Positions 5,643 to 64,000 of a DNA stretch of 64,000 nucleotides are shown piece after piece. Within the stretch, counting starts at the first letter, position 1. Every line of letters starts with the position of its first letter. The position numbers and the translations under genes are program-made. The DNA is from a virus. The notes under the pieces were generated by a model. The model was not told the origin of the DNA. It made no database searches and saw only the letters and a program-made list of their open reading frames with translations. The stretch spans positions 3,769 through 67,768 of the IMG/VR virus record IMGVR_UViG_3300014934_000112; one strand, given 5' to 3'.

Positions 5643-5822
5643 TTACAATATAATTTTATGACCACACTGCGGACAGTGAATGAATTCCACATACCCACTA
5701 CAATAGCTGTATCCGACAAGTTCAGATTTAATATCTGATTCATCAAATCTCAACACAGCGCCACATCCATTGCATTTAACTTTTCGTTTAGTGCCATCTT
5801 TTAAAATTTTAATCATTTTCAT
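5643..5822 (-). CDS. 59-aa zinc-ribbon protein. It is below the ORF-track size cutoff and was found by manual translation.
   Basis: MKMIKILKDGTKRKVKCNGCGAVLRFDESD...CPQCGHKIIL. The start ATG overlaps the stop of the upstream paralog (ATGA-type overlap). Confidence 0.4.
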   Translation of the reverse strand: MKMIKILKDGTKRKVKCNGCGAVLRFDESDIKSELVGYSYCSGYVEFIHCPQCGHKIIL

Positions 5823-6015
5823 CTACCTCAACTTCTACTGGATGTTTGCACTGTGGACAGATTATATAGTTTGGTGGGTATACTGGTTTGAGAGTTCTGA
5901 AATCAATCGTTCGCTTTGGCTTATCTTTAATATCATTTTTCTCATAACTCAACTCTGCACCACAATTTTCACAAGTGCATTGTTTTCGTGTTCCTCTTTC
6001 TAAAATTTCAATCAT
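5809..6015 (-). CDS. 68-aa zinc-ribbon protein, paralog of 5643-5822. Start reassigned from 6111 to the internal ATG.
   Basis: The internal ATG at 6013-6015 is preceded by the strong RBS GGAAAGGAGAGACCA; product MIEILERGTRKQCTCENCGAEL...CPQCKHP. The longer 6111 start would place a terminator-like hairpin inside the coding region. Confidence 0.45.
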   Translation of the reverse strand: MIEILERGTRKQCTCENCGAELSYEKNDIKDKPKRTIDFRTLKPVYPPNYIICPQCKHPVEVEVDEND

Positions 6016-6075
6016 TGGTCTCTCCTTTCCTTGATTTTCTTCATTTTTCTCAAATTTCCTAAAATCGCATCGACC

Positions 6076-6102
6076 AAAACCCTTGTAAAATAAGGGTTTT
6101 TT
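6076..6102. terminator. Palindromic hairpin AAAACCCTT / AAGGGTTTT with a T-run. It lies just outside the left inverted repeat of the Dam switch.
   Basis: A 9-bp perfect stem with a 7-nt loop, followed by T6 on the plus strand. Confidence 0.4.
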
Positions 6103-6122
6103 GACGGTCAATTTTGCAATAA

Positions 6123-6138
6123 AATATTTCTTTTATGT
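6123..6138. repeat. Left inverted repeat (16 bp, AATATTTCTTTTATGT) of the invertible segment; contains the ATG of the plus-strand Dam fragment
   Basis: Perfect reverse complement of 6426-6441; 17 of 18 positions match if extended by two. Confidence 0.8.
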
Positions 6139-6419
6139 CATGTGACTATAACTATTTCAAGGATGTAAAAAATTGCTTATTATATCTTGATCCGCCATAC
6201 AAAGGCACAAGCAATTACGCTAAAAGTTGTATGGATTATGATCATTTTTATGATTTTTGTCACGACATTGCGCAAAATAACCTTGTTATCATTAGCGAAT
6301 ACGATATGCCAAATGACGAATTTAAATGCATTTGGCAAAAAGAACGTACAGTGTGCCAAGATGCCAACCGAATAAATGGACAAAAGGCAACTGAAAAATT
6401 ATTTATTCCCAATTTATGA
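6135..6419 (+). CDS. dam: Dam-family N6-adenine DNA methyltransferase, C-terminal portion (catalytic motif IV DPPY), carried on the inverted segment
   Basis: MSCDYNYFKDVKNCLLYLDPPYKGTSNY..NLVIISEYD aligns with the E. coli Dam region FFYCESYADSMARADDASVVYCDPPY..PVLISNHD. There is no SAM-binding N-terminal domain and no RBS before the ATG. Confidence 0.65.
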   Translation: MSCDYNYFKDVKNCLLYLDPPYKGTSNYAKSCMDYDHFYDFCHDIAQNNLVIISEYDMPNDEFKCIWQKERTVCQDANRINGQKATEKLFIPNL

Positions 6420-6423
6420 TTAT

Positions 6424-6879
6424 TTACATAAAAGAAATATTCTTTAATGAAATCGCTTGTTTTCGTAAATTAATCACTCTCTCATAATACATATTTCTTT
6501 TTCCAGTCTTAACTTGTCCGAACCCGCCATTGAAGTATTTCCCTCCAAAGCTTGCACAGTATCCAATCAAAGCAGTGTATTCTTTAGAATATTTATCTCC
6601 TCCTGCTTTTCGATTTTCTCTAACTTCAACATAATGTTCCTTCGAACAAATTTCTGGAGCAATTGGAATCGTTGGATTTTCTTGAACGTATTTCAATAAT
6701 GCAATCAATTCATCATTAATGTCTGCGCCAATTTTGTTTTTACATTGAATCTTATCAATAATATTGGCTCCGCCAACAAATGGCTCTATGTATGTTTCAA
6801 TATTGTTATCATCAATATATTTCTGAATAATCGGTACAATATATTTTGCAATTCTATTTTTACTTCCTTGATATACTAT
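6424..6879 (-). CDS. dam: Dam-family N6-adenine DNA methyltransferase, N-terminal portion (SAM-binding motif I). It begins at an ATA codon and has no ATG/GTG/TTG.
   Basis: The minus-strand translation after a TAA stop reads RQ-I-VYQGSKNRIAKYIVPIIQKYIDDNNIETYIEPFVGGANIIDKIQCKNKIGADINDELIALL...YCASFGGKYFNGGFG...ISFM*. This matches E. coli Dam WAGGK...EPFVGAGSVF...ADINSDLISLY...YGYNG...FNVPFG. The in-frame ATA is at 6877-6879. Confidence 0.6.
   Translation of the reverse strand: MVYQGSKNRIAKYIVPIIQKYIDDNNIETYIEPFVGGANIIDKIQCKNKIGADINDELIALLKYVQENPTIPIAPEICSKEHYVEVRENRKAGGDKYSKEYTALIGYCASFGGKYFNGGFGQVKTGKRNMYYERVINLRKQAISLKNISFM
6426..6441. repeat. Right inverted repeat (ACATAAAAGAAATATT); encodes the last codons (..NISFM) of the minus-strand Dam N-terminal part
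   Basis: Perfect reverse complement of 6123-6138. Confidence 0.8.
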
Positions 6880-7140
6880 TTGTCTTTACCAGAAAGCCCA
6901 TATGGTTTACAGTAGCTACACTCTCGTTTTCCTTTCTGGTTTATTATTTAATTAAAGTCATCAATTAGCAAATTCTCACAACTCCAAATTCGTATAATCC
7001 TACATCATCCTCAAGTGCAATAGTGTCATGTTCTGTCGTAGTAATAAATTCATTATCTATGCCAACAACTGGCATATGATCTGGATATTTACCCAGCTTT
7101 TTCTTAAGCTGTCCAACTGTTATATAATTTGGTTCTTCCA

Positions 7141-7527
7141 TTACAATCTCACAACTTTCTTATCTGCTAACTCTTTTACTCTATCAGTCAAAGTTACTGC
7201 CATCACATGTGTTCCCATATAAGCATCAAGAGCTTCGCCAATTAAATTGTATCCTTCATCAATAAGAACATGATCATAATTCATTCCACGCTTGTTCTTA
7301 CATTCTTCTACGGTCATAGGTACTGGAATAATTAAGTCAAGATCGTTTGCTTTGTTTAATAATAGCTTGATCTGTGAATGATTTTTTACAATAATCGGAT
7401 ACTGTGTTGTAGCACTCGTATAGAGTAATTGTGTAGTTTTGCCCGTTGCTCTGTCTTTAATAATCAGTGTTGTTTGTTTATTTGTCATAGCTAATCTCCT
7501 TCTATATAAAATATCTCTGAAGTTCAT
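7141..7527 (-). CDS. Hypothetical protein
   Basis: A 128-aa ORF. Confidence 0.4.
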   Translation of the reverse strand: MNFRDILYRRRLAMTNKQTTLIIKDRATGKTTQLLYTSATTQYPIIVKNHSQIKLLLNKANDLDLIIPVPMTVEECKNKRGMNYDHVLIDEGYNLIGEALDAYMGTHVMAVTLTDRVKELADKKVVRL

Positions 7528-7912
7528 CTTTGAATCTTAGTGGACTATCAACAATGAGCCGTGAATACTGAAACTGTCTTAAAAAATTCATAACAGTTCT
7601 AACATCTGCACCGCTTAAAGGAATAAATTTTACATATTCAGGTCTCCCAGCAATACATACAACTGCCCACGAATGCTCTGAATCATGAAATCCAACGTCA
7701 ACTGCTACATCTGTAATCTGGTTGTACATCTTCTTCATTTCTTCATTCTGCTTTGTTGAAATCTGACACTGACGAGCTGCCTCATTGCAATTGTTTTTGG
7801 CAAATCTTAATGTAGTGTTACTTTCATCAATTTCATTTTTTAAGGCATCAATATCTGGTTGTATGATTTCTAGCAACCATTTTCGAATTTTCTCTTTTAA
7901 TTTCTGGAACAA
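7502..7912 (-). CDS. Hypothetical protein
   Basis: A 136-aa ORF. Confidence 0.4.
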   Translation of the reverse strand: MFQKLKEKIRKWLLEIIQPDIDALKNEIDESNTTLRFAKNNCNEAARQCQISTKQNEEMKKMYNQITDVAVDVGFHDSEHSWAVVCIAGRPEYVKFIPLSGADVRTVMNFLRQFQYSRLIVDSPLRFKDELQRYFI

Positions 7913-7924
7913 TTAACTCTCCTT

Positions 7925-8125
7925 TTATATTTCACACGATCCATTTAATCCATATGGTTCATAACACAAGCCACTTACCCAAACCCAGTTATCGTCTTTG
8001 TATATGAGGAATTCAACTGTTTCAAAATCACAATAACTGTCACTATCTTTGTCTTCACGAACTGCATATACAGTGATTGGTTTCTTAGGTGTTGGAGACC
8101 TGCCAATTTCTTGTATTTTAAACAT
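7925..8125 (-). CDS. Hypothetical small protein
   Basis: A 66-aa ORF in the co-directional gene array. Confidence 0.3.
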   Translation of the reverse strand: MFKIQEIGRSPTPKKPITVYAVREDKDSDSYCDFETVEFLIYKDDNWVWVSGLCYEPYGLNGSCEI

Positions 8126-8420
8126 CTGAATCCTCCCATACTACATTGACATTGAACCCTAATTCCTTTAAAACATCTGTAAAATCATCAACATCTAATT
8201 TATGGTTTTCTAACTTAGTCCCATTGACTTCAATAGATTGCCAATCATCGGATTTAGTAATCGTAATTGTATTTGGTTCTTTTACTTCTTTTTCTTCTTT
8301 GTATTCCTCTTTATACATGTCAAAGTCTTCGCATAAAGCACACTCAAAAGAAGTATACTTATTCGCACAACTTTGGCACTGTAAATATAAATTGTCTAAA
8401 TCTTTATTCTTTTCGCCCAT
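8118..8420 (-). CDS. Hypothetical acidic protein with a CxxC..CxxC motif
   Basis: A 100-aa ORF containing CQSCANKYTSFECALCE. Confidence 0.35.
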   Translation of the reverse strand: MGEKNKDLDNLYLQCQSCANKYTSFECALCEDFDMYKEEYKEEKEVKEPNTITITKSDDWQSIEVNGTKLENHKLDVDDFTDVLKELGFNVNVVWEDSDV

Positions 8421-9075
8421 ATTCCTCCTCGCAAATATCTACTATATGTTCACAAAGTTCTTTCGGATACATTGATCTCAATGTTGCATCTTTTAATGCT
8501 TGAGTTCCGTATTTATTAGAACCTCTTGGAGCAGGTGGATGACACGCTGCACCATTCTTGCATGGCGGTTTAAATTTTGGATTTGGATGATTAGTCCAAA
8601 TATCCGTAGGTTTCATTCTACGTGTTTTCCAAGGCTCGTTTTGCATATATTGGCAATATGTAATAGTATATCTTGGAATATCTTGCATGAATTCCATTTT
8701 CCGTAAACCTGCTCTTGGGTTCTCCCAAAAATAAAACTTTGGTTTTAATTCTTTAACTAATTCCTTGACGTGAACATTCATATCATCACAAAACCTAGCA
8801 TAATCACTAACTGGATCAAGATTCCCTGTTTCTGAGTTCTTCTTTCTATGATGTGAAATTGCAGCAATACTATACGAAGTACAGTCTGTGCCAATCCATA
8901 TCACGTCTGGATGTCCAAATCTTTCAAGAATATCTTGTGTTGTTACTTTGCTTATGTCCGTATGCCATGAACTAGGAAATTTTTCGTCCCAGTCAATTGT
9001 GTAACATTCATGCCCTCTTGCTCTAAAAGCATTACTGATACATTCTGTACCACTAAATAATTCTAAAACTTTTAT
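8404..9075 (-). CDS. Divergent C5-cytosine-methyltransferase-like protein. It begins at an ATA codon.
   Basis: Extending the ORF-track start (GTG at 8904) upstream gives (ATA)KVLELFSGTECISNAF (motif I-like), then PDVIWIGTDCTSYSIAA (motif IV-like, with DCT in place of PCQ) and FYFWENPRAG (motif VI-like, with ENP in place of ENV). The in-frame TAA lies at 9082-9084 and there is no ATG/GTG/TTG between it and motif I. Confidence 0.45.
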   Translation of the reverse strand: MKVLELFSGTECISNAFRARGHECYTIDWDEKFPSSWHTDISKVTTQDILERFGHPDVIWIGTDCTSYSIAAISHHRKKNSETGNLDPVSDYARFCDDMNVHVKELVKELKPKFYFWENPRAGLRKMEFMQDIPRYTITYCQYMQNEPWKTRRMKPTDIWTNHPNPKFKPPCKNGAACHPPAPRGSNKYGTQALKDATLRSMYPKELCEHIVDICEEEYGRKE

Positions 9076-9084
9076 AATCTCTTA

Positions 9085-9306
9085 CCGCAATAGCGGTGAT
9101 CACCTTTAACTCCAGAGACTATAATTCCTTTCATTAAATATGTTTTTTATGTAGATCTACTTATATTAAATAATCACCAATATTTTTATAGTCTTAAATC
9201 ACATAAGACTACCAGAGACTTATAAATCCAATTAAATATGTTTTACGAAAATCGGTTATATGACAACAATTTTAGTTGTACCGATAAAAAACATATTTGG
9301 ATCAGA
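9085..9306. promoter_or_regulatory. Intergenic control region upstream of the C5-MTase-like gene. It holds two GATC-centred 10-bp palindromes, a hairpin and a ~34-bp direct repeat.
   Basis: The features are CCGCAATAGCGG (hairpin, 9085-9096), GGTGATCACC (9095-9104), GTAGATCTAC (9151-9160), the direct repeats CCAGAGACT.TAA.TCC..TTAAATATGTTTT at 9112-9146 and 9212-9244, and the hairpin AGTCTTA/TAAGACT at 9191-9211. Confidence 0.4.
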
Positions 9307-10254
9307 TTACTCCTCAAACTTTAAATTTTTAAAGAAATATGTAATGACATTGATATTCCAGCCATCACCAAGCACATTTGCTGCTTCATTTCTTGTCAAA
9401 CATTGTGTATATCCTGATGGAACACATTGACATCTTTCTAATTCTTCTTGATTCATATATCTAACTCCATCAAAAGCGTGTCCCGTATAATCATCAAGTT
9501 CACTGGCTTTAATTTTTCTTTTACCACCAGACAATCTTATATATTCATCAACACATTTTTGATAATGTTCCTTGTTCTTAAAAATTAATGTAGTAAATCC
9601 AGTTGAATAATATCTGTGAAACATTTTGCAAGGAGTTGAGTGCGGTCTGCTATCAACAACAACCAAACATCTAGCTTTGTCTCGATTACTCCACCCATCA
9701 GTTAAAATGTCATTCAATGAAACGTCAATTGGCTCAATGTCCTTATTTACACTGATGTTTGTCCAATAATACCGTTTTCTTAAAGCAGGAGAAACTTTTT
9801 CTGCATTAATTAGATATGGTTCGACTTCCATTAATTCACTAATAAAATCTCTATCATCTTTCTTCATAGAAGCTACATTCTCCATAAAGAAATATTTTGG
9901 ATTCACTTCTTTTAAAATTCGATAACACTGCTTGAATAATCCAGATTTCTCGTCATTATCTAACCCAATTCTTCTATCTGTCTTGCAAGCAATTGAGAAT
10001 GTCTGGCAGGGGCTGCCAAACATCACAATATCAATGTCTGTTTTATAGTCACCAGATTCTGTGTAAAGCACTCCATTTTTATATGTAACTTTATTTACAT
10101 CACCAATATGTATTGTTTCTGGATAATTTTCTTTTGTAACTTTGATTGCAATATCTTTAATCTCTGCTGCAAAGTATTTGTTAACTTTAATTCCTGCTTT
10201 ATCCAAAGCAATATGTCCACAAGACATTCCGTCACATAGACTTAATACGTTTAT
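9307..10254 (-). CDS. DNA (cytosine-5)-methyltransferase, Dcm-type. It begins at an ATA codon.
   Basis: The canonical motifs are (ATA)NVLSLCDGMSCGHIAL (motif I), FGSPCQTFSIA (motif IV, PCQ), FFMENV (motif VI, ENV) and ANVLGDGWNINVI (motif X). The ORF-track ATG at 10225-10227 lies inside motif I. An in-frame TGA is at 10264-10266 and the ATA at 10252-10254. Confidence 0.8.
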   Translation of the reverse strand: MNVLSLCDGMSCGHIALDKAGIKVNKYFAAEIKDIAIKVTKENYPETIHIGDVNKVTYKNGVLYTESGDYKTDIDIVMFGSPCQTFSIACKTDRRIGLDNDEKSGLFKQCYRILKEVNPKYFFMENVASMKKDDRDFISELMEVEPYLINAEKVSPALRKRYYWTNISVNKDIEPIDVSLNDILTDGWSNRDKARCLVVVDSRPHSTPCKMFHRYYSTGFTTLIFKNKEHYQKCVDEYIRLSGGKRKIKASELDDYTGHAFDGVRYMNQEELERCQCVPSGYTQCLTRNEAANVLGDGWNINVITYFFKNLKFEE

Positions 10255-10504
10255 ACCTGAAGTTTTGTTTTTATCTACGTTTCAATTTCTGTAGGTAAAA
10301 CAATATAAAAACAAATACATAAGAAAGGTTTTATCAAGTAATCCTAGGTAAAACGCAGTGCGCTGCCTTGTAAATACAAGGTTTAAATGACAGAAAATAA
10401 AAACAAAATTTTAAAGTCATCATATGGAAGAAATAAGACATGTCTAATCTATAGATATTTCTCCTCGAATAGTCATCAGAAATGTAACTAGAGATGTTAC
10501 ATTG

Positions 10505-10696
10505 TTATATATTTATTAGTATTACGGCAATTCCTAAAACAAAGAATCCCATTAAGTATGCCAATACTGCTGATTTAAACCAGAAAGAGATGTGCTTATC
10601 AATCTCTTTCTTATGTTTGAAGAATAAAATATTACATATAGTTGCTGAAATGACACACCAGCCAATCAGTATCCATTCAATTATGCTCAGTACCAT
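10505..10696 (-). CDS. Small membrane protein (two predicted TM helices)
   Basis: A hydrophobic 63-aa ORF. Confidence 0.35.
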   Translation of the reverse strand: MVLSIIEWILIGWCVISATICNILFFKHKKEIDKHISFWFKSAVLAYLMGFFVLGIAVILINI

Positions 10697-10793
10697 AATT
10701 ATTACTTTGAATATTCCTCTACACCAACCTTCCTTAATATTTAATCAAAAATAAAAATCCAATTGAAATATACATGAAGCTCAAATACCAAGG

Positions 10794-10948
10794 CTACTGT
10801 GGAAATACACTGCACAACGGCTCGATAGATTTGTTTTTCACACTCAGTTCAATTGCAAGGATCAGACACACTATAAAACCTATAAGTCCGATTGTTCCGA
10901 GTGTTAATGCCAACTTTTCACAAATATTTAAGATCAATGTCATCTGCA
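10794..10948 (-). CDS. Small membrane protein (51 aa), found by manual translation. It is preferred over the plus-strand ORF 10774-10971.
   Basis: [51 protein letters not shown], co-directional with the gene array. Confidence 0.3.
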
Positions 10949-36569: not shown

Positions 36570-37099
36570 TCATTAAGCTCAAGACCACATTCGTCTCTCT
36601 TAGCAAAATACTCAGATTCAACTTCATAGTGAACATCTTTATATAATTGCTCATAATATGATTTCTGTAATTTGAAAAATGCAACCTTTAAATCATTTTC
36701 GTAAAATTTACCCTGCTGTCCATTTTGAATTGTGCGATATCCAATTTCTGGATGGTTATATGAAACTGAAATAATTGATCCATTATAACCAATGCTCATA
36801 TGAATTCCTCCATTGACATCCGCCCGATATTCAACCTGGTGTCCGTCAATAAACCCATATGGATGCCACTCATAATCATCTGGCGCAACAGTTGGTTCAA
36901 TAACATCAAAATATTTTTCCAATTCATCTCCTGACATCACGCCAAGATGTACTCCATCTACACCAAATCTAAAATTAATAACATTTTCATCTGTATCAAT
37001 CTTAACAATCTCACATACCTCGCCAAGATTATCGAAGCATCCCATTGATTTCTTTAATTTAATCTTATGATCTGTTGTCAATTCATTAATATTAATCAT
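36563..37099 (-). CDS. Hypothetical protein
   Basis: A 178-aa ORF. Confidence 0.4.
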   Translation of the reverse strand: MININELTTDHKIKLKKSMGCFDNLGEVCEIVKIDTDENVINFRFGVDGVHLGVMSGDELEKYFDVIEPTVAPDDYEWHPYGFIDGHQVEYRADVNGGIHMSIGYNGSIISVSYNHPEIGYRTIQNGQQGKFYENDLKVAFFKLQKSYYEQLYKDVHYEVESEYFAKRDECGLELNEW

Positions 37100-38127
37100 G
37101 CTGCCACCTTACCTTTCTTACTAAAATGTTTATTCCATGCATCAACCGCTTCTTGTTGATCGGCAGTTAGAGGATCATTGAATCTTTGCAGTGCTTGTAC
37201 GATTCGTCCATTTTGTATTTCAATCGTCACTAACGATTTGTTTGGTTCTTTTACTCTTCTCAAGAACATAATATGGCATTCGCCATCAATGACTCGATCT
37301 ATGTAACTTGCCACACAATTATTCTGCTGTACCGCTTCGTCTTTGATGTCTTGAGTGGAGTCTGGATAAAAGAATCTCAGTCCTTTATATGTAAATTCGT
37401 ATTCTTTATTAATACGGCTCTTAAAGACTTCTTCCGAAAATTCTTTTTGTAATCTTTTGTAATTTCTTGTGACAATATCCATTGTTGTTTTGAAATGTCT
37501 TGGATATCTATCAAATTTATGACTGATTGCGTCCATCATACGGGCATAATCACGCAATTCTCTGAGCAACCAATTTATAGCAACAATTGCTTCAAACGTC
37601 ATTATCTTATCCATATAAACAAATACATCTGCGAGATTATATCCATAATCCTTATTTAAAGACGTTAATATTTCCATATAATAATCTGTGCTACGATTAG
37701 CAAAAAAGAACATTAAGTCGGATTGAGTCACTGTCATATATTGTGTTTGAAGAATTGTTTGAACATAATCTGGATATTTTTTGTAAAAATCAACAAACTT
37801 GTTATTTAATAAGCGGTTCGTCTTCACACCAATACAATAATTTCTTAACCATTTTGGTACTTCATTAATTGAATATCTGAAATCTTCTGCAATTTGTTTG
37901 TGCGTAAACCCTATAGCGAAGAACTGCTCACATACTGAATATTGACTTGCATATTCAAACAAAGTTCCCAAATTATAATCAATGAAGCCACATGTAGTTC
38001 TTCCCATTTCACAATTTCTTCGCCAATTTACATATTTTAGAAACTCTGCATAATGTGGATCGGACACAAACAATTTATCCAATTCATCAGCTGAATGTCC
38101 AGACAGAATATTATTTAAAGCTTTCAC
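37096..38127 (-). CDS. Hypothetical protein, possibly PcfJ-like
   Basis: A 343-aa protein whose C-terminal NCVASYIDRVIDGECHIMFLRR resembles the PcfJ domain. Confidence 0.35.
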   Translation of the reverse strand: MKALNNILSGHSADELDKLFVSDPHYAEFLKYVNWRRNCEMGRTTCGFIDYNLGTLFEYASQYSVCEQFFAIGFTHKQIAEDFRYSINEVPKWLRNYCIGVKTNRLLNNKFVDFYKKYPDYVQTILQTQYMTVTQSDLMFFFANRSTDYYMEILTSLNKDYGYNLADVFVYMDKIMTFEAIVAINWLLRELRDYARMMDAISHKFDRYPRHFKTTMDIVTRNYKRLQKEFSEEVFKSRINKEYEFTYKGLRFFYPDSTQDIKDEAVQQNNCVASYIDRVIDGECHIMFLRRVKEPNKSLVTIEIQNGRIVQALQRFNDPLTADQQEAVDAWNKHFSKKGKVAA

Positions 38128-38323
38128 TTTCTTACCACTTTTGCCATAACAATCACCATTTGATAAATCATATTTGCAAGTTTTACCATCATCCAGATGG
38201 AAAATAATAAACTTGCCTTGTTTTTCTGCTGTAATAGTGTTTCAACTCCTTTTCTACCACAATATATAGTATATAATATTTATAGGCATACTATATATTG
38301 TGGTTATTTTTAACATCAAATTC

Positions 38324-63706: not shown

Positions 63707-63916
63707 TTATCCTGTCATCTGCTTCTCAAAAAGCTGTCTTTCTAACGCATCGAAATCATAGTTACGATCACACTCTAAGTGTGGAAGGTTTGTTACCTTG
63801 GACTTTTGTTTAGCGTTCTTCTTAGCCTGATTACGTTCCCAGTTTCGTACTGCTGCCTTCCAGTCTTGCATTTTGCTATTGCCCATCATCCAGTCTTTGG
63901 CTGTGTAATAATCCAC
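63707..63916 (-). CDS. Hypothetical small protein
   Basis: A 69-aa ORF. Confidence 0.3.
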   Translation of the reverse strand: MDYYTAKDWMMGNSKMQDWKAAVRNWERNQAKKNAKQKSKVTNLPHLECDRNYDFDALERQLFEKQMTG

Positions 63917-64000
63917 AAACTCTTCTGGATCAATTCCATTGTGTCTCTGCTGGCAATATCTGGAGACTTGCTCGCAATCAGGCGGTGTGAATCGCTTTAT

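What the first reader, a model, noticed from the sequence alone, without database searches (positions are those of the whole stretch)
6424..10254. All three DNA methyltransferase genes in the island have ATA exactly where the start codon is expected
For each methyltransferase, the conserved N-terminal motif I is preceded in frame by a stop codon. Between that stop and motif I there is no ATG, GTG or TTG, but there is an ATA 3-5 codons upstream of motif I. Read as Met, each ATA gives a textbook N-terminus. For Dam: TAA-AGA-CAA-ATA-GTA-TAT-CAA-GGA-AGT-AAA, giving (M)VYQGSK, with the ATA at 6877-6879. For the divergent C5-MTase: TAA-GAG-ATT-ATA-AAA-GTT-TTA-GAA-TTA-TTT-AGT-GGT, giving (M)KVLELFSG, with the ATA at 9073-9075. 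For the Dcm-type MTase: TGA-AAC-GTA-GAT-AAA-AAC-AAA-ACT-TCA-GGT-ATA-AAC-GTA-TTA-AGT-CTA, giving (M)NVLSLCDGMSCG, with the ATA at 10252-10254. On the plus strand all three read TAT where CAT would encode ATG. Other genes in the window use ATG, or occasionally TTG or GTG, with good RBSs. Three independent coincidences limited to the methyltransferase genes suggest two explanations. One is deliberate AUA initiation to throttle methyltransferase dosage. The other is start-codon knock-out mutations (G to A) fixed under selection against DNA methylation, for example by a Type IV or methylation-dependent restriction system in the propagation host; this would fit the Dam gene also sitting in its OFF orientation. 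A third possibility is a C-to-T base-calling artefact at modified cytosines.
Basis: partly seen in the sequence, partly recalled or inferred. Interest (0 to 1): 0.72.

Follow-up and report, generated by a model that had tools for sequence, protein, structure and literature searches.

The report
Phage methylase genes: weak starts, flip-switches
Two of this phage's three DNA-methylase genes really do begin with a weak, non-standard start codon that related phages have kept under selection. The third only looks start-less, because its true ATG sits on a small invertible DNA segment that is in the 'off' position here.

Summary

**Dam-family gene (ATA 6877-6879).** 22 related contigs from 8 metagenomes carry the same ATA, and 55 more distant relatives have ATG there. 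The ATA clade's genes are intact, with dN/dS of 0.07-0.15.

**Small C5-methylase (ATA 9073-9075).** Relatives with the same folded leader have ATT, ATA or GTG, never ATG. A conserved helix brings a Shine-Dalgarno 44-57 nt upstream to 6-11 nt from the start, like the T4 gene 25/38 split ribosome-binding site.

**Dcm-type gene (ATA 10252-10254).** This ATA is an internal Ile codon. The real ATG lies on a 152-bp invertible segment (10260-10411) that is OFF in this window. Flipping it gives MTENKNKISGINVLSL…, as seen in natural relatives.

**Rejected readings.** Knock-out mutation and base-calling artefact are both rejected.

**Context.** Each methylase has its own inverton, and both orientations of each occur in nature. 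One unrelated gene (37096-38235) also starts with a conserved ATT/ATC/ATA. Near-cognate initiation is therefore real in this lineage, enriched at methylases but not exclusive to them.

No translation, methylation or read-level data could be checked. The invertase and the host are unknown.

The parts
6877..6879 (-). ATA: inferred near-cognate initiation codon of the Dam-family (D12 class) methyltransferase
   Evidence: The same codon is present in 22 IMG/VR contigs, and 55 more distant relatives have ATG at the homologous position. It is the only near-cognate codon between the in-frame TAA (6888-6886) and the conserved VYQGSK. Codons 2-59 give pN/pS 0.136.
6424..6879 (-). Dam N-terminal part: 151 codons plus stop, the truncated product of the OFF state
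   Evidence: PF02086 profile positions 1-92. The ORF ends at a TAA immediately after the inverted-repeat arm.
6123..6441 (.). Intragenic inverton of Dam. Perfect 16-nt inverted repeats (6123-6138 and 6426-6441) flank 287 bp that encode the C-terminal half with DPPY. That half currently lies on the + strand (6135-6419).
   Evidence: repeat I6. Among 22 close relatives, 9 are ON (244 aa) and 13 are OFF (151 aa). ATG-start relatives lack these repeats.
6880..6940 (-). Dam 5' leader. It contains an extended SD-like AGAAAGGA (6937-6930) and a helix CCAGAAAG (6939-6932) / CTTTCTGG (6896-6889). It also contains the palindromes GTAGCTAC (6919-6912) and CCATATGG (6905-6898).
   Evidence: Positions -43 to -4 are invariant across the clade, although coding dS reaches 0.5. 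All four leader types show SD-to-pyrimidine pairing.
9073..9075 (-). ATA: inferred near-cognate initiation codon of the small C5-type methyltransferase (MT2, phrog_757). A second near-cognate codon, ATT, lies directly upstream at 9076-9078.
   Evidence: At the homologous position relatives have ATG 47, ATT 18, GTG 8, TTG 4, ATA 2 and ATC 1. All relatives with the structured leader have ATT, ATA or GTG, with an in-frame stop 2 codons upstream. L328 also has ATA. Pfam profile position 1 aligns to this codon.
8404..9075 (-). MT2 coding sequence, 223 aa
   Evidence: PF00145 matches the N-terminal part and phrog_757 matches full length. Against relatives, dN/dS is 0.05-0.16 with dS above 1.
9072..9132 (-). 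MT2 structured leader, a candidate split ribosome-binding site. Elements are SD GAAAGGA (9132-9126), helix P1 5' strand (9124-9114) and 3' strand (9082-9072, which overlaps the ATA). There is also the palindrome GGTGATCACC (9104-9095) and the hairpin ACCGC-TATT-GCGGT (9097-9084).
   Evidence: MFE is -17.6 kcal/mol, z = -2.57. P1 is kept through five sequence variants, including compensatory changes. The inner helix leaves 6-11 unpaired nt between SD and start, against 44-57 nt in linear distance.
9136..9298 (.). Inverton upstream of MT2. Perfect 15-nt inverted repeats (9136-9150 and 9284-9298) flank 133 bp. A third, direct copy of the site lies at 9231-9244.
   Evidence: repeats I10 and D11. 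The ENA contig L328 carries the inner segment in the opposite orientation (alignment score 180 against 38).
10252..10254 (-). ATA in the Dcm-type methyltransferase (MT3). This is an internal Ile codon, not the start.
   Evidence: Relatives have TTA, ATT, CTT or ATA here, with starts 10-14 codons upstream. L012 reads ATG-ACA-GGT-AAT-AAA-AAC-AAA-ACT-TCA-GGT-ATA.
9307..10281 (-). MT3 open frame. It has no start codon in this orientation, and an in-frame TGA lies at 10284-10282.
   Evidence: PF00145 matches full length, E = 4.5e-28. ORF table.
10260..10411 (.). 5' inverton of MT3, in the OFF orientation here. Its 15-nt inverted repeats are at 10260-10274 and 10397-10411. The far end carries the ATG (+ strand 10387-10389) and the codons for M-T-E.
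   Evidence: repeat I11. Flipping it in silico gives a 325-aa ORF, MTENKNKISGINVLSLCDG…, with AAGG 5 nt upstream. Natural ON copies are L012/L080 and L161. Of 28 contigs, 19 have the opposite orientation to the window. Diverged relatives keep an equivalent inverton.
37096..38235 (-). Control: a non-methyltransferase gene (phrog_9653) that starts at ATT 38235-38233
   Evidence: Homology begins at residue 6 of the stop-to-stop frame. AAAGGAG lies 10 nt upstream. 49 relatives have ATT or ATC, and 4 distant relatives have ATA 6 nt after GAGG.

Best explanation
The island holds three phage DNA-methyltransferase genes that are kept at low or switchable expression by two mechanisms.

**1. Near-cognate start codons (Dam-family gene and MT2).** Both genes are translated from AUA; relatives of MT2 use AUU, AUA or GUG. 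Initiator tRNA reads these codons poorly and IF3 discriminates against them, so little protein is made.
- In MT2, a conserved helix folds out about 40 nt of leader. This brings an extended Shine-Dalgarno sequence to 6-11 nt from the weak start, forming a split ribosome-binding site. The outer pairs of the same helix cover the start codon.
- In Dam, the upstream SD-like run pairs with a pyrimidine run just before the start.

**2. An inverton that carries the start codon (MT3).** The MT3 ATA is an ordinary Ile codon. MT3's ATG, its first three codons and a weak SD lie at one end of a 152-bp invertible cassette. The window has the cassette in the OFF orientation, which puts a TGA in frame instead.

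**Other switches.** A second inverton lies just upstream of the MT2 leader. A third flips the C-terminal catalytic half of Dam.

**Shown:** codon conservation, purifying selection, helix covariation, and both orientations of all three segments in natural contigs.

**Inferred:** that AUA is the actual initiation codon, that its effect is attenuation, and that the purpose is to vary the methylation state of progeny phage.
For: **Dam**
- ATA is present in 22 contigs from 8 metagenome ids, and ATG in 55 more distant relatives.
- There are 11 distinct coding sequences, all 244 codons once flipped ON. dS reaches 0.5 and dN/dS is 0.07-0.15.
- Codons 2-59 give pN/pS 0.136, and the leader is invariant from -43 to -4.

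**MT2**
- The start-codon spectrum and the in-frame stop 2 codons upstream are.
- ORFs are intact at 208-252 aa, with dN/dS 0.05-0.16 and dS above 1.
- Every structured-leader relative has ATT, ATA or GTG, while ordinary-SD relatives have ATG.
- Effective SD-start spacing is 6-11 nt against 44-57 nt linear.
- The only two intergenic extended-SD motifs in the window with no start within 3-13 nt are those of MT2 and Dam.

**MT3**
- Both orientations of the segment occur.
- In-silico inversion gives an in-frame ATG.
- A natural ON copy is called as an ATG ORF, MTENKNKT….
- Diverged relatives keep equivalent inverted repeats, and L014 is OFF.

**MT2 inverton:** it is inverted in L328.

**Dam inverton:** 9 relatives are ON and 13 OFF.

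**Near-cognate starts elsewhere in the lineage:** a conserved ATT/ATC/ATA start follows a good SD in an unrelated gene.

**Precedent**
- In S. aureus, AUA/AUU starts of infC, ccpN and cvfC1 give about 10-30% of AUG (PMC13009471).
- T4 genes 38 and 25 have a split ribosome-binding site (PMC3014915).

**Genetic code:** all three stop codons are used, so the code is standard.
Against: - Nothing here shows translation. No N-terminus, ribosome profile or methylation data could be examined.
- The Dam ATA has no good SD nearby, and its upstream SD-like run is predicted to be paired. How ribosomes reach it is unclear.
- The full MT2 helix includes the start codon. It could repress initiation rather than promote it.
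- Leader folds are modest on their own, with z from -2.6 to +0.4.
- The counts of relatives are phylogenetically non-independent.
- Orientations come from consensus assemblies, not from reads within one population.
- No invertase gene was found in the window or in the flanks of relatives. This was a motif search only.
- The host is unknown.
- Established knowledge from E. coli reporter work puts AUA initiation far below the S. aureus values.
Confidence: 0.7

Rival explanations
1. The ATA codons are start-codon knock-outs (ATG to ATA). The methyltransferase genes would then be dead or dying, fixed under selection against methylation.
For: More distant Dam relatives have ATG at exactly this position. 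The window's Dam and MT3 are both in OFF configurations.
Against: - All 11 distinct Dam sequences of the ATA clade are intact, with dN/dS 0.07-0.15 at dS up to 0.5. This includes the codons upstream of the first canonical start.
- MT2 is intact in all 30 ATT/ATA/ATC/GTG loci examined, with dN/dS 0.05-0.16.
- The Dam leader is more conserved than synonymous sites.
- The MT3 ATA is not a mutated start in this clade.
Confidence: 0.03
2. The ATA codons are sequencing or base-calling artefacts: a C read as T on the plus strand at modified cytosines.
For: All three changes would be C to T on the same strand.
Against: - The same ATA is present in 22 IMG/VR contigs from 8 metagenome ids for Dam.
- For MT2 it is present in IMG/VR and in an ENA assembly.
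- MT2 relatives carry ATT and ATC, which a C-to-T error cannot produce.
- The three plus-strand contexts share no motif.
- MT3 is explained without any error.
Confidence: 0.02
3. Dam and MT2 are translated, but not by direct initiation at ATA or ATT. Ribosomes would load at the extended SD 45-55 nt upstream. They would translate a tiny upstream ORF or none at all, then slide or re-initiate at the first usable codon of the methyltransferase frame. The near-cognate codon would be tolerated because re-initiation is less selective.
For: - A strong orphan SD precedes both genes.
- Many MT2 relatives have ATG/GTG-AGT-TAA 12 nt after that SD.
- The Dam leader has GTG-TAG 8 nt after it.
Against: - The mini-ORF is absent from the window, L080 and L328 (CTCTGGAG) and from Dam leader type D.
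- The constant 6-11 nt effective spacing created by P1 fits direct SD-guided initiation better.
- The unrelated gene at 38235 uses ATT/ATC/ATA with an ordinary SD and no leader.
Confidence: 0.12
4. The MT3 ATA is also used as a weak start. The OFF orientation would then still give a trickle of N-terminally shorter enzyme. The ATA would be the remnant of the ancestral ATG, which 16 distant relatives still have at that position.
For: - Distant relatives without the N-terminal extension begin with ATG at exactly this residue.
- ATA is the only near-cognate codon in the 9 open codons upstream of it. It is a rare codon, at 1.08%.
Against: - Most relatives with the cassette have TTA, CTT or CTA there, which cannot initiate.
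- No SD precedes it. AGG lies 1 nt upstream.
- The OFF orientation also places a terminator-like hairpin ahead of it (inference).
Confidence: 0.1

Closest known systems
Near-cognate start codons as translational attenuators: infC AUU (E. coli) and AUA (S. aureus), pcnB AUU, ccpN AUA, cvfC1 AUU
   Same: A conserved AUA or AUU sits at the position of the initiator codon of an intact, selected gene. In S. aureus reporters such codons give about 10-30% of the AUG level, and they come with extended SD motifs (PMC13009471).
   Different: - Here the genes are orphan phage DNA methyltransferases.
- The extended SD is 44-57 nt away rather than adjacent.
- No feedback loop like that of IF3 is evident.
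- Initiation itself is not demonstrated.
Split ribosome-binding site of phage T4 genes 38 and 25
   Same: An RNA helix between the SD and the start codon reduces a non-functional spacing to a functional one. In T4 this is 22 to 5 nt and 27 to 11 nt (PMC3014915). In MT2 it is 44-57 to 6-11 nt, and the helix is kept through compensatory changes.
   Different: - The excluded segment is about twice as long and contains further conserved palindromes.
- The start is near-cognate rather than AUG.
- The outer pairs of the helix cover the start codon.
- The phage lineage is unrelated, with Firmicutes-type signals.
- There are no mutational data.
Invertible promoter or expression-site switches: fimS, Salmonella hin, Bacteroides invertons, Mycoplasma pulmonis vsa
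   Same: Short inverted repeats flank a 130-290 bp segment. Its orientation decides whether the adjacent gene is expressed. Both orientations are found in natural sequences.
   Different: - The MT3 cassette carries the start codon and first codons, not only a promoter. The repeat itself is translated as N-K-N-K.
- The same cassette precedes different genes in relatives: two C5 methyltransferases and a radical-SAM-like protein.
- It lies in a phage genome.
- No invertase has been identified.
Intragenic and gene-altering programmed inversions, and 'epigenetic invertons' of Type I hsdS genes
   Same: An inversion inside a coding sequence changes the product of a DNA-methylation gene (PMC10028968 and PMC7672463, listed; PMC9881135, listed and read). 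The Dam segment flips the C-terminal half.
   Different: - This is a simple ON / truncated-OFF switch of an orphan D12-class enzyme. It does not shuffle specificity domains between alternative cassettes.
- It is phage-borne.
- It is combined with a near-cognate start.

Membership tests
Gene with a near-cognate (AUA/AUU) initiation codon | No ATG/GTG/TTG in frame between the upstream stop and the conserved N-terminal domain | tested here: met
   Met for Dam and MT2, each with 59 start-less codons. MT3 also meets it in this orientation, but for a different reason.
Gene with a near-cognate (AUA/AUU) initiation codon | The near-cognate codon occupies the position of the initiator codon of homologues and is conserved | tested here: met
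   - Dam: ATA in 22 relatives against ATG in 55.
- MT2: ATT, ATA, ATC and GTG against ATG and TTG.
- Not met for MT3, where the close relatives have an internal Leu or Ile.
Gene with a near-cognate (AUA/AUU) initiation codon | Purifying selection on the codons upstream of the first canonical start | tested here: met
   Dam codons 2-59 give pN/pS 0.136. The MT2 N-terminal 58 residues, including motif I, are conserved, and whole-gene dN/dS is 0.05-0.16.
Gene with a near-cognate (AUA/AUU) initiation codon | A ribosome-binding signal placed so that it can select the codon | tested here: inconclusive
   - MT2: the SD comes to 6-11 nt from the start only if helix P1 forms.
- Dam: there is no convincing SD nearby, and the upstream SD-like run is predicted to be paired.
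Gene with a near-cognate (AUA/AUU) initiation codon | Experimentally mapped N-terminus or initiation peak | not testable with these tools
   No proteomic or ribosome-profiling data are available.
Split ribosome-binding site (T4 gene 25/38 type) | SD at a non-functional linear distance from the start, with a helix that restores functional spacing | tested here: met
   In 10 distinct MT2-type leaders, a linear distance of 44-57 nt becomes 6-11 unpaired nt.
Split ribosome-binding site (T4 gene 25/38 type) | Helix conserved through compensatory change | tested here: met
   The variants are ATAGTCTC/GAGACTAT, AATAGTCTT/AAGACTATT, TGTTCACTG/TGGTGAACA, GTACC/GGTAC and a G-U variant in the window. The sequences are related, so independence is limited.
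Split ribosome-binding site (T4 gene 25/38 type) | Destabilising the helix lowers translation | not testable with these tools
   This needs reporter mutagenesis.
Inverton (site-specific invertible DNA switch) | Inverted repeats flank the segment | tested here: met
   The arms are 16 nt (100% match), 15 nt (100%) and 15 nt (93%). All are A-rich and look alike by eye, starting ATAAAA or CATAAAA. This resemblance was not tested statistically.
Inverton (site-specific invertible DNA switch) | Both orientations occur between otherwise collinear flanks | tested here: met
   - Dam: 9 ON and 13 OFF.
- MT3 cassette: 19 of 28 contigs are opposite to the window.
- MT2 segment: L328 is opposite. This rests on one contig only.
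Inverton (site-specific invertible DNA switch) | Both orientations coexist within one population (read-level evidence) | not testable with these tools
   No reads are available. Only consensus assemblies were examined.
Inverton (site-specific invertible DNA switch) | A cognate invertase (serine or tyrosine recombinase) | tested here: inconclusive
   Motif searches of the window and of the clade loci found none. No profile search was run on all ORFs, and the rest of the ~150-kb genome and the host were not examined.

The most novel reading that the evidence does not exclude
A lineage of large gut phages carries a programmable 'epigenetic coat' module. Three DNA-modification genes are each toggled independently by site-specific inversion:
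- a portable cassette that delivers the start codon and first codons to whichever gene lies behind it;
- a leader-proximal inverton;
- an intragenic flip of a catalytic half.

When ON, two of the genes are further throttled by conserved AUA/AUU start codons in structured leaders, one of them an unusually long split ribosome-binding site.

The result would be up to eight methylation states among progeny virions. That would hedge between hosts armed with classical restriction-modification and hosts armed with methylation-dependent restriction.
Probability: 0.4. Interest if true: 0.8.

Novelty: new variant of a known kind. Interest (0 to 1): 0.62.

Why it matters
**For annotation.** Gene callers that allow only ATG/GTG/TTG will truncate or drop these methyltransferases. 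In this window, motif I would be lost from all three. In these phages, 'start-less' DNA-modification genes should be checked for near-cognate starts and for invertible 5' cassettes before they are called pseudogenes.

**For biology.** Invertons in metagenomic phage genomes have only just begun to be reported (PMC13501310). Here three of them sit on one methyltransferase island, and each has natural ON and OFF variants. One of them is a reusable cassette that carries a start codon. Together with conserved weak starts, this suggests that phages tune and diversify their own DNA methylation. That idea can be tested by sequencing virion methylomes and sorting reads by orientation.

Tried and rejected
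- **Close GenBank phage relatives.** A megablast of 5800-10800 found none.
- **Known RNA families.** Rfam found nothing credible in the leaders.
- **Programmed +1 frameshift in MT3.** I considered a shift from the out-of-frame TTG (10285-10283; TTG-AAA-CGT-AGA-TAA). I also considered poly-A slippage in relative L014. Both were dropped once the inversion explained them.
- **Start supplied by inverting the short leader repeats of Dam or MT2.** Worked through by eye on the sequence, flipping CCAGAAAG/CTTTCTGG or ATAGTCTC/GAGATTAT gives no in-frame ATG. All relatives share one leader orientation.
- **A consistent upstream mini-ORF.** It is absent in several leaders.
- **Stop-codon recoding.** Rejected, because TAA, TAG and TGA all end ORFs.
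- **Invertase.** Motif searches in the window and in clade loci found nothing.
- **Metagenome scans.** The first scan, for the left MT2 junction, found nothing. The second gave one informative contig.
- **Promoters inside the invertons.** None scored convincingly. I therefore could not say which MT2 orientation is ON.
- **Cultured relatives of MT2.** The Bacillus Herelleviridae phage read in detail (Deep Blue) uses an ordinary ATG 5 codons upstream. In BCP8-2 and Bcp1 the annotated CDS likewise begins 4-5 codons upstream. They do not inform the leader.

Full report
**Observation**

All genes in the region are on the minus strand.
- Dam-family gene: TAA-AGA-CAA-ATA(6879-6877)-GTA-TAT-CAA-GGA.
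- Small C5-type methyltransferase (MT2 here): TAA-GAG-ATT-ATA(9075-9073)-AAA-GTT.
- Dcm-type gene (MT3): TGA(10284-10282), nine codons, then ATA(10254-10252)-AAC-GTA.

Pfam aligns the ATA to profile position 1 or 2 of PF00145 for MT2 and MT3. For Dam, residue 3 aligns to position 1 of PF02086.

Among 87 non-nested minus-strand ORFs, Dam and MT2 have the longest stretches without ATG/GTG/TTG after the upstream stop, at 59 codons each. The other long stretches overlap the preceding gene, apart from one at the window edge (63707-64000, not examined) and one case discussed below. ATA makes up only 1.08% of codons. TAA, TAG and TGA all terminate ORFs, so the code is standard. The sequence-level observation is real and is not chance. 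The three cases turned out to be different things.

**Dam-family gene**

A scan of IMG/VR returned 79 loci.
- 22 loci, from 8 metagenome ids, have 91-100% identical N-terminal halves. They carry the same ATA, the same in-frame TAA two codons upstream and an almost identical leader.
- 55 more distant relatives (47-69% identity) have ATG at exactly that position (MVYQGSK). One has TTG and one has ATT.

The gene is split in the window. Perfect 16-nt inverted repeats (6123-6138 and 6426-6441) flank 287 bp that encode the DPPY-containing C-terminal half on the opposite strand. Among the 22 close relatives, 9 have the segment in the orientation that gives a 244-aa ORF. The other 13, like the window, have the 151-aa truncated form.

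After flipping all copies to ON, the clade contains 11 distinct coding sequences. All are 244 codons with no stop or frameshift. Pairwise dS reaches 0.5 and dN/dS is 0.07-0.15. The 58 codons that precede the first canonical start give pN/pS 0.136. Leader positions -43 to -4 do not vary at all.

A gene whose start codon had been knocked out would not show this pattern. ATA is the only near-cognate codon in the three open codons before the conserved sequence, so it is the inferred initiation codon. ATG-start relatives lack the intragenic inverted repeats. The ATA clade has therefore acquired both layers of control.

**MT2**

At the position of the ATA, 80 relatives have ATG 47, ATT 18, GTG 8, TTG 4, ATA 2 and ATC 1. 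The split is not random.
- Relatives with an ordinary SD 6-9 nt upstream have ATG.
- All relatives that share the window's leader have ATT, ATA or GTG, mostly with an in-frame stop two codons upstream.
- An ENA contig (L328) adds a further ATA.

The ORFs are intact (208-252 aa). dN/dS is 0.05-0.16 while synonymous sites are saturated. The weak start is therefore old and maintained.

The leader has a defined architecture. An extended SD (GAAAGGA, 9132-9126) is followed by helix P1. The 5' strand of P1 (9124-9114) pairs with 9082-9072, which is the sequence ending in the start codon. Every version folds this way (window MFE -17.6 kcal/mol, z = -2.57). P1 is kept through different sequences: ATAGTCTC/GAGACTAT, AATAGTCTT/AAGACTATT, TGTTCACTG/TGGTGAACA, GTACC/GGTAC, and a G-U variant in the window.

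If the pairs that cover the start codon are open, the inner helix leaves 6-11 unpaired nucleotides between the SD core and the start. The linear distance is 44-57 nt. This matches the logic of the split ribosome-binding site of T4 genes 38 and 25 (22 to 5 nt and 27 to 11 nt; PMC3014915), but on a larger scale.

In the whole window, the only intergenic extended-SD motifs with no start within 3-13 nt are the two upstream of MT2 and Dam. The Dam leaders behave differently. In all four leader types, the upstream SD-like run pairs with a pyrimidine run 8-15 nt before the start. I cannot say how ribosomes reach the Dam ATA.

**MT3**

In the closest relatives, the position of the ATA is TTA (28), ATT (3), and CTT, CTA, ATA, TAC and TGG (1 each). 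Those proteins start 10-14 codons upstream, mostly at TTG, with N-termini such as MTENKEKNNYCE[I/L]NVLSL. Only 17 more distant relatives without this extension start at that position, 16 with ATG and 1 with TTG.

The window has a TTG (10285-10283), but it is one base out of frame. That sequence, TTGAAACGTAGATAAAAAC, occurs in 28 IMG/VR contigs.
- In 19 of them it is joined to the reverse complement of the window's upstream flank.
- In 9 it is joined, as in the window, to a downstream gene. That gene may be an MT3-like gene, another C5 methyltransferase or a 366-aa protein.

The junctions coincide with 15-nt inverted repeats at 10260-10274 and 10397-10411. BLAST of the flank, segment and gene pieces confirmed both orientations between collinear flanks. 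One example is L012/L080, whose flanks match the window's MT3.

Inverting 10260-10411 in silico places ATG-ACA-GAA-AAT-AAA-AAC-AAA in frame, with AAGG 5 nt upstream. This gives a 325-aa protein, MTENKNKISGINVLSLCDGMSCG…. L012 has this arrangement naturally. In L161, the ORF finder calls a 367-aa ATG ORF beginning MTENKNKT behind the flipped cassette.

Diverged MT3 relatives keep an equivalent ~130-bp segment between their own inverted repeats. L014, which also lacks a start, is simply an OFF copy. The MT3 ATA is therefore an internal isoleucine codon, and the gene is switched off here by inversion. A promoter-like site at 10446-10419 lies just outside the cassette. A terminator-like hairpin lies inside it. 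These two features fit the switch, but that reading is inference.

**A third inverton**

Perfect 15-nt repeats at 9136-9150 and 9284-9298 flank 133 bp immediately upstream of the MT2 SD. L328 has the inner segment in the opposite orientation, with an alignment score of 180 against 38. The three pairs of repeat arms are all A-rich and look alike. No recombinase motif was found in the window or in the neighbouring loci of relatives. The enzyme is unidentified.

**Specificity control**

Gene 37096-38235 (phrog_9653, unknown function) matches its family from residue 6 of the stop-to-stop frame. Its first canonical start is 38 codons in. It has ATT 10 nt after AAAGGAG. 49 relatives have ATT or ATC in the same context, and four distant relatives have ATA 6 nt after GAGG.

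Near-cognate initiation is therefore a real habit of this lineage. It affects two of three methyltransferase genes and at least one of about 85 other genes. It is enriched at methyltransferases, not exclusive to them.

**Comparison with what is known**

AUA and AUU starts that attenuate translation are established for infC and pcnB. In Staphylococcus aureus they are established for infC, ccpN and cvfC1, where they give about 10-30% of AUG and come with extended SD motifs (PMC13009471). Dam and MT2 work like these and pass the sequence-level tests for membership. The experimental test could not be made.

Split ribosome-binding sites are known from T-even phages. Invertible switches of DNA-methylation genes are known in bacteria: Type I hsdS, Type II systems and intragenic invertons. 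Putative invertons in metagenomic phage genomes were first reported in 2026, with no methyltransferase example. I found no description of a cassette that carries a start codon and serves several phage DNA-modification genes. The library searched is incomplete.

**Context**

- No GenBank phage is close at the DNA level.
- The replication proteins and MT2 resemble those of phages of Firmicutes.
- Relatives 92-97% identical in the flanks lack MT2 and MT3. They carry a different gene behind the same cassette. The island is therefore mosaic.

**Verdict**

The 'deliberate weak start' reading holds for Dam and MT2 (inferred, confidence about 0.7). It fails for MT3, which is an inverton in the OFF state (shown by comparison). 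The knock-out and artefact readings are rejected.

Noticed in passing
window 6123-6441: The Dam gene is interrupted by inversion of its C-terminal half between perfect 16-nt repeats. The repeat is itself translated (K-N-I-S-F-M) and is followed by TAA in the OFF state. Close relatives are 9 ON and 13 OFF, and ATG-start relatives lack the repeats.
   Followed up: yes
window 10260-10411; L161 369-500; L012 2435-2590: A 152-bp invertible cassette carries an ATG and the first codons (M-T-E) at one end. The repeat encodes N-K-N-K. In relatives the same cassette precedes two different C5 methyltransferases and a 367-aa radical-SAM-like protein (CSFGCKYC).
   Followed up: yes
window 9136-9298, with 9231-9244 and about 9200-9230: The candidate inverton next to the MT2 leader contains a third, direct copy of the repeat (ATTAAATATGTTTT). 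It also holds a partial duplicate of the leader's 5' part (TATAAGTCTCTGGTAGTC against TATAGTCTCTGGAGTT). More than two recombination products may be possible. Which orientation is ON is unknown.
   Followed up: partly
window 37096-38235: A gene of unknown function (phrog_9653) starts at ATT after a good SD. 49 relatives have ATT or ATC, and 4 distant relatives have ATA. A gene caller limited to canonical starts would remove its first 36 residues.
   Followed up: yes
window 9095-9104, 6912-6919, 6898-6905; leaders of L081, L085, L111, L180 and L189: The methyltransferase leaders contain perfect 8-12-nt palindromes. Their outer bases co-vary (GGTG..CACC, GCTG..CAGC, AGTG..CACT) and their centres are always self-complementary (GATC, GCGC, GTAC, AGCT, ATAT, AATT). 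An RNA hairpin would not require a palindromic loop. A DNA-level site, such as a protein operator or a methylation target, is possible but unexplained.
   Followed up: partly
L160 863-1756 against window 8134-10229: Relatives that are 92-97% identical on both sides lack MT2 and MT3. They have a single different C5 methyltransferase behind the same 5' cassette. The breakpoint lies inside motif I, so the methyltransferase genes are exchanged as cassettes.
   Followed up: partly
L013 and L037, about 3040: Two distant MT3 relatives have an in-frame TAG in motif I (MSCG*L) where others have Gln. This suggests phages that read TAG as an amino acid.
   Followed up: no
window 10419-10446 and 10340-10385: A promoter-like site (TAGACA-16-TATGAT, 10 of 12 matches) points into the MT3 cassette from outside. 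Inside, the hairpin CCTTGTATTTACAAGG followed by GCAGCGCACTGCGTTTT looks like a terminator in the OFF orientation. In the ON orientation it overlaps the weak SD.
   Followed up: partly
phage record OP172757.1 (hit H38), 45835-46543: The best cultured match to the full-length Dam is in Enterocloster phage CB473P3. It aligns in two pieces annotated as two hypothetical proteins, which may be another split or switched copy.
   Followed up: no
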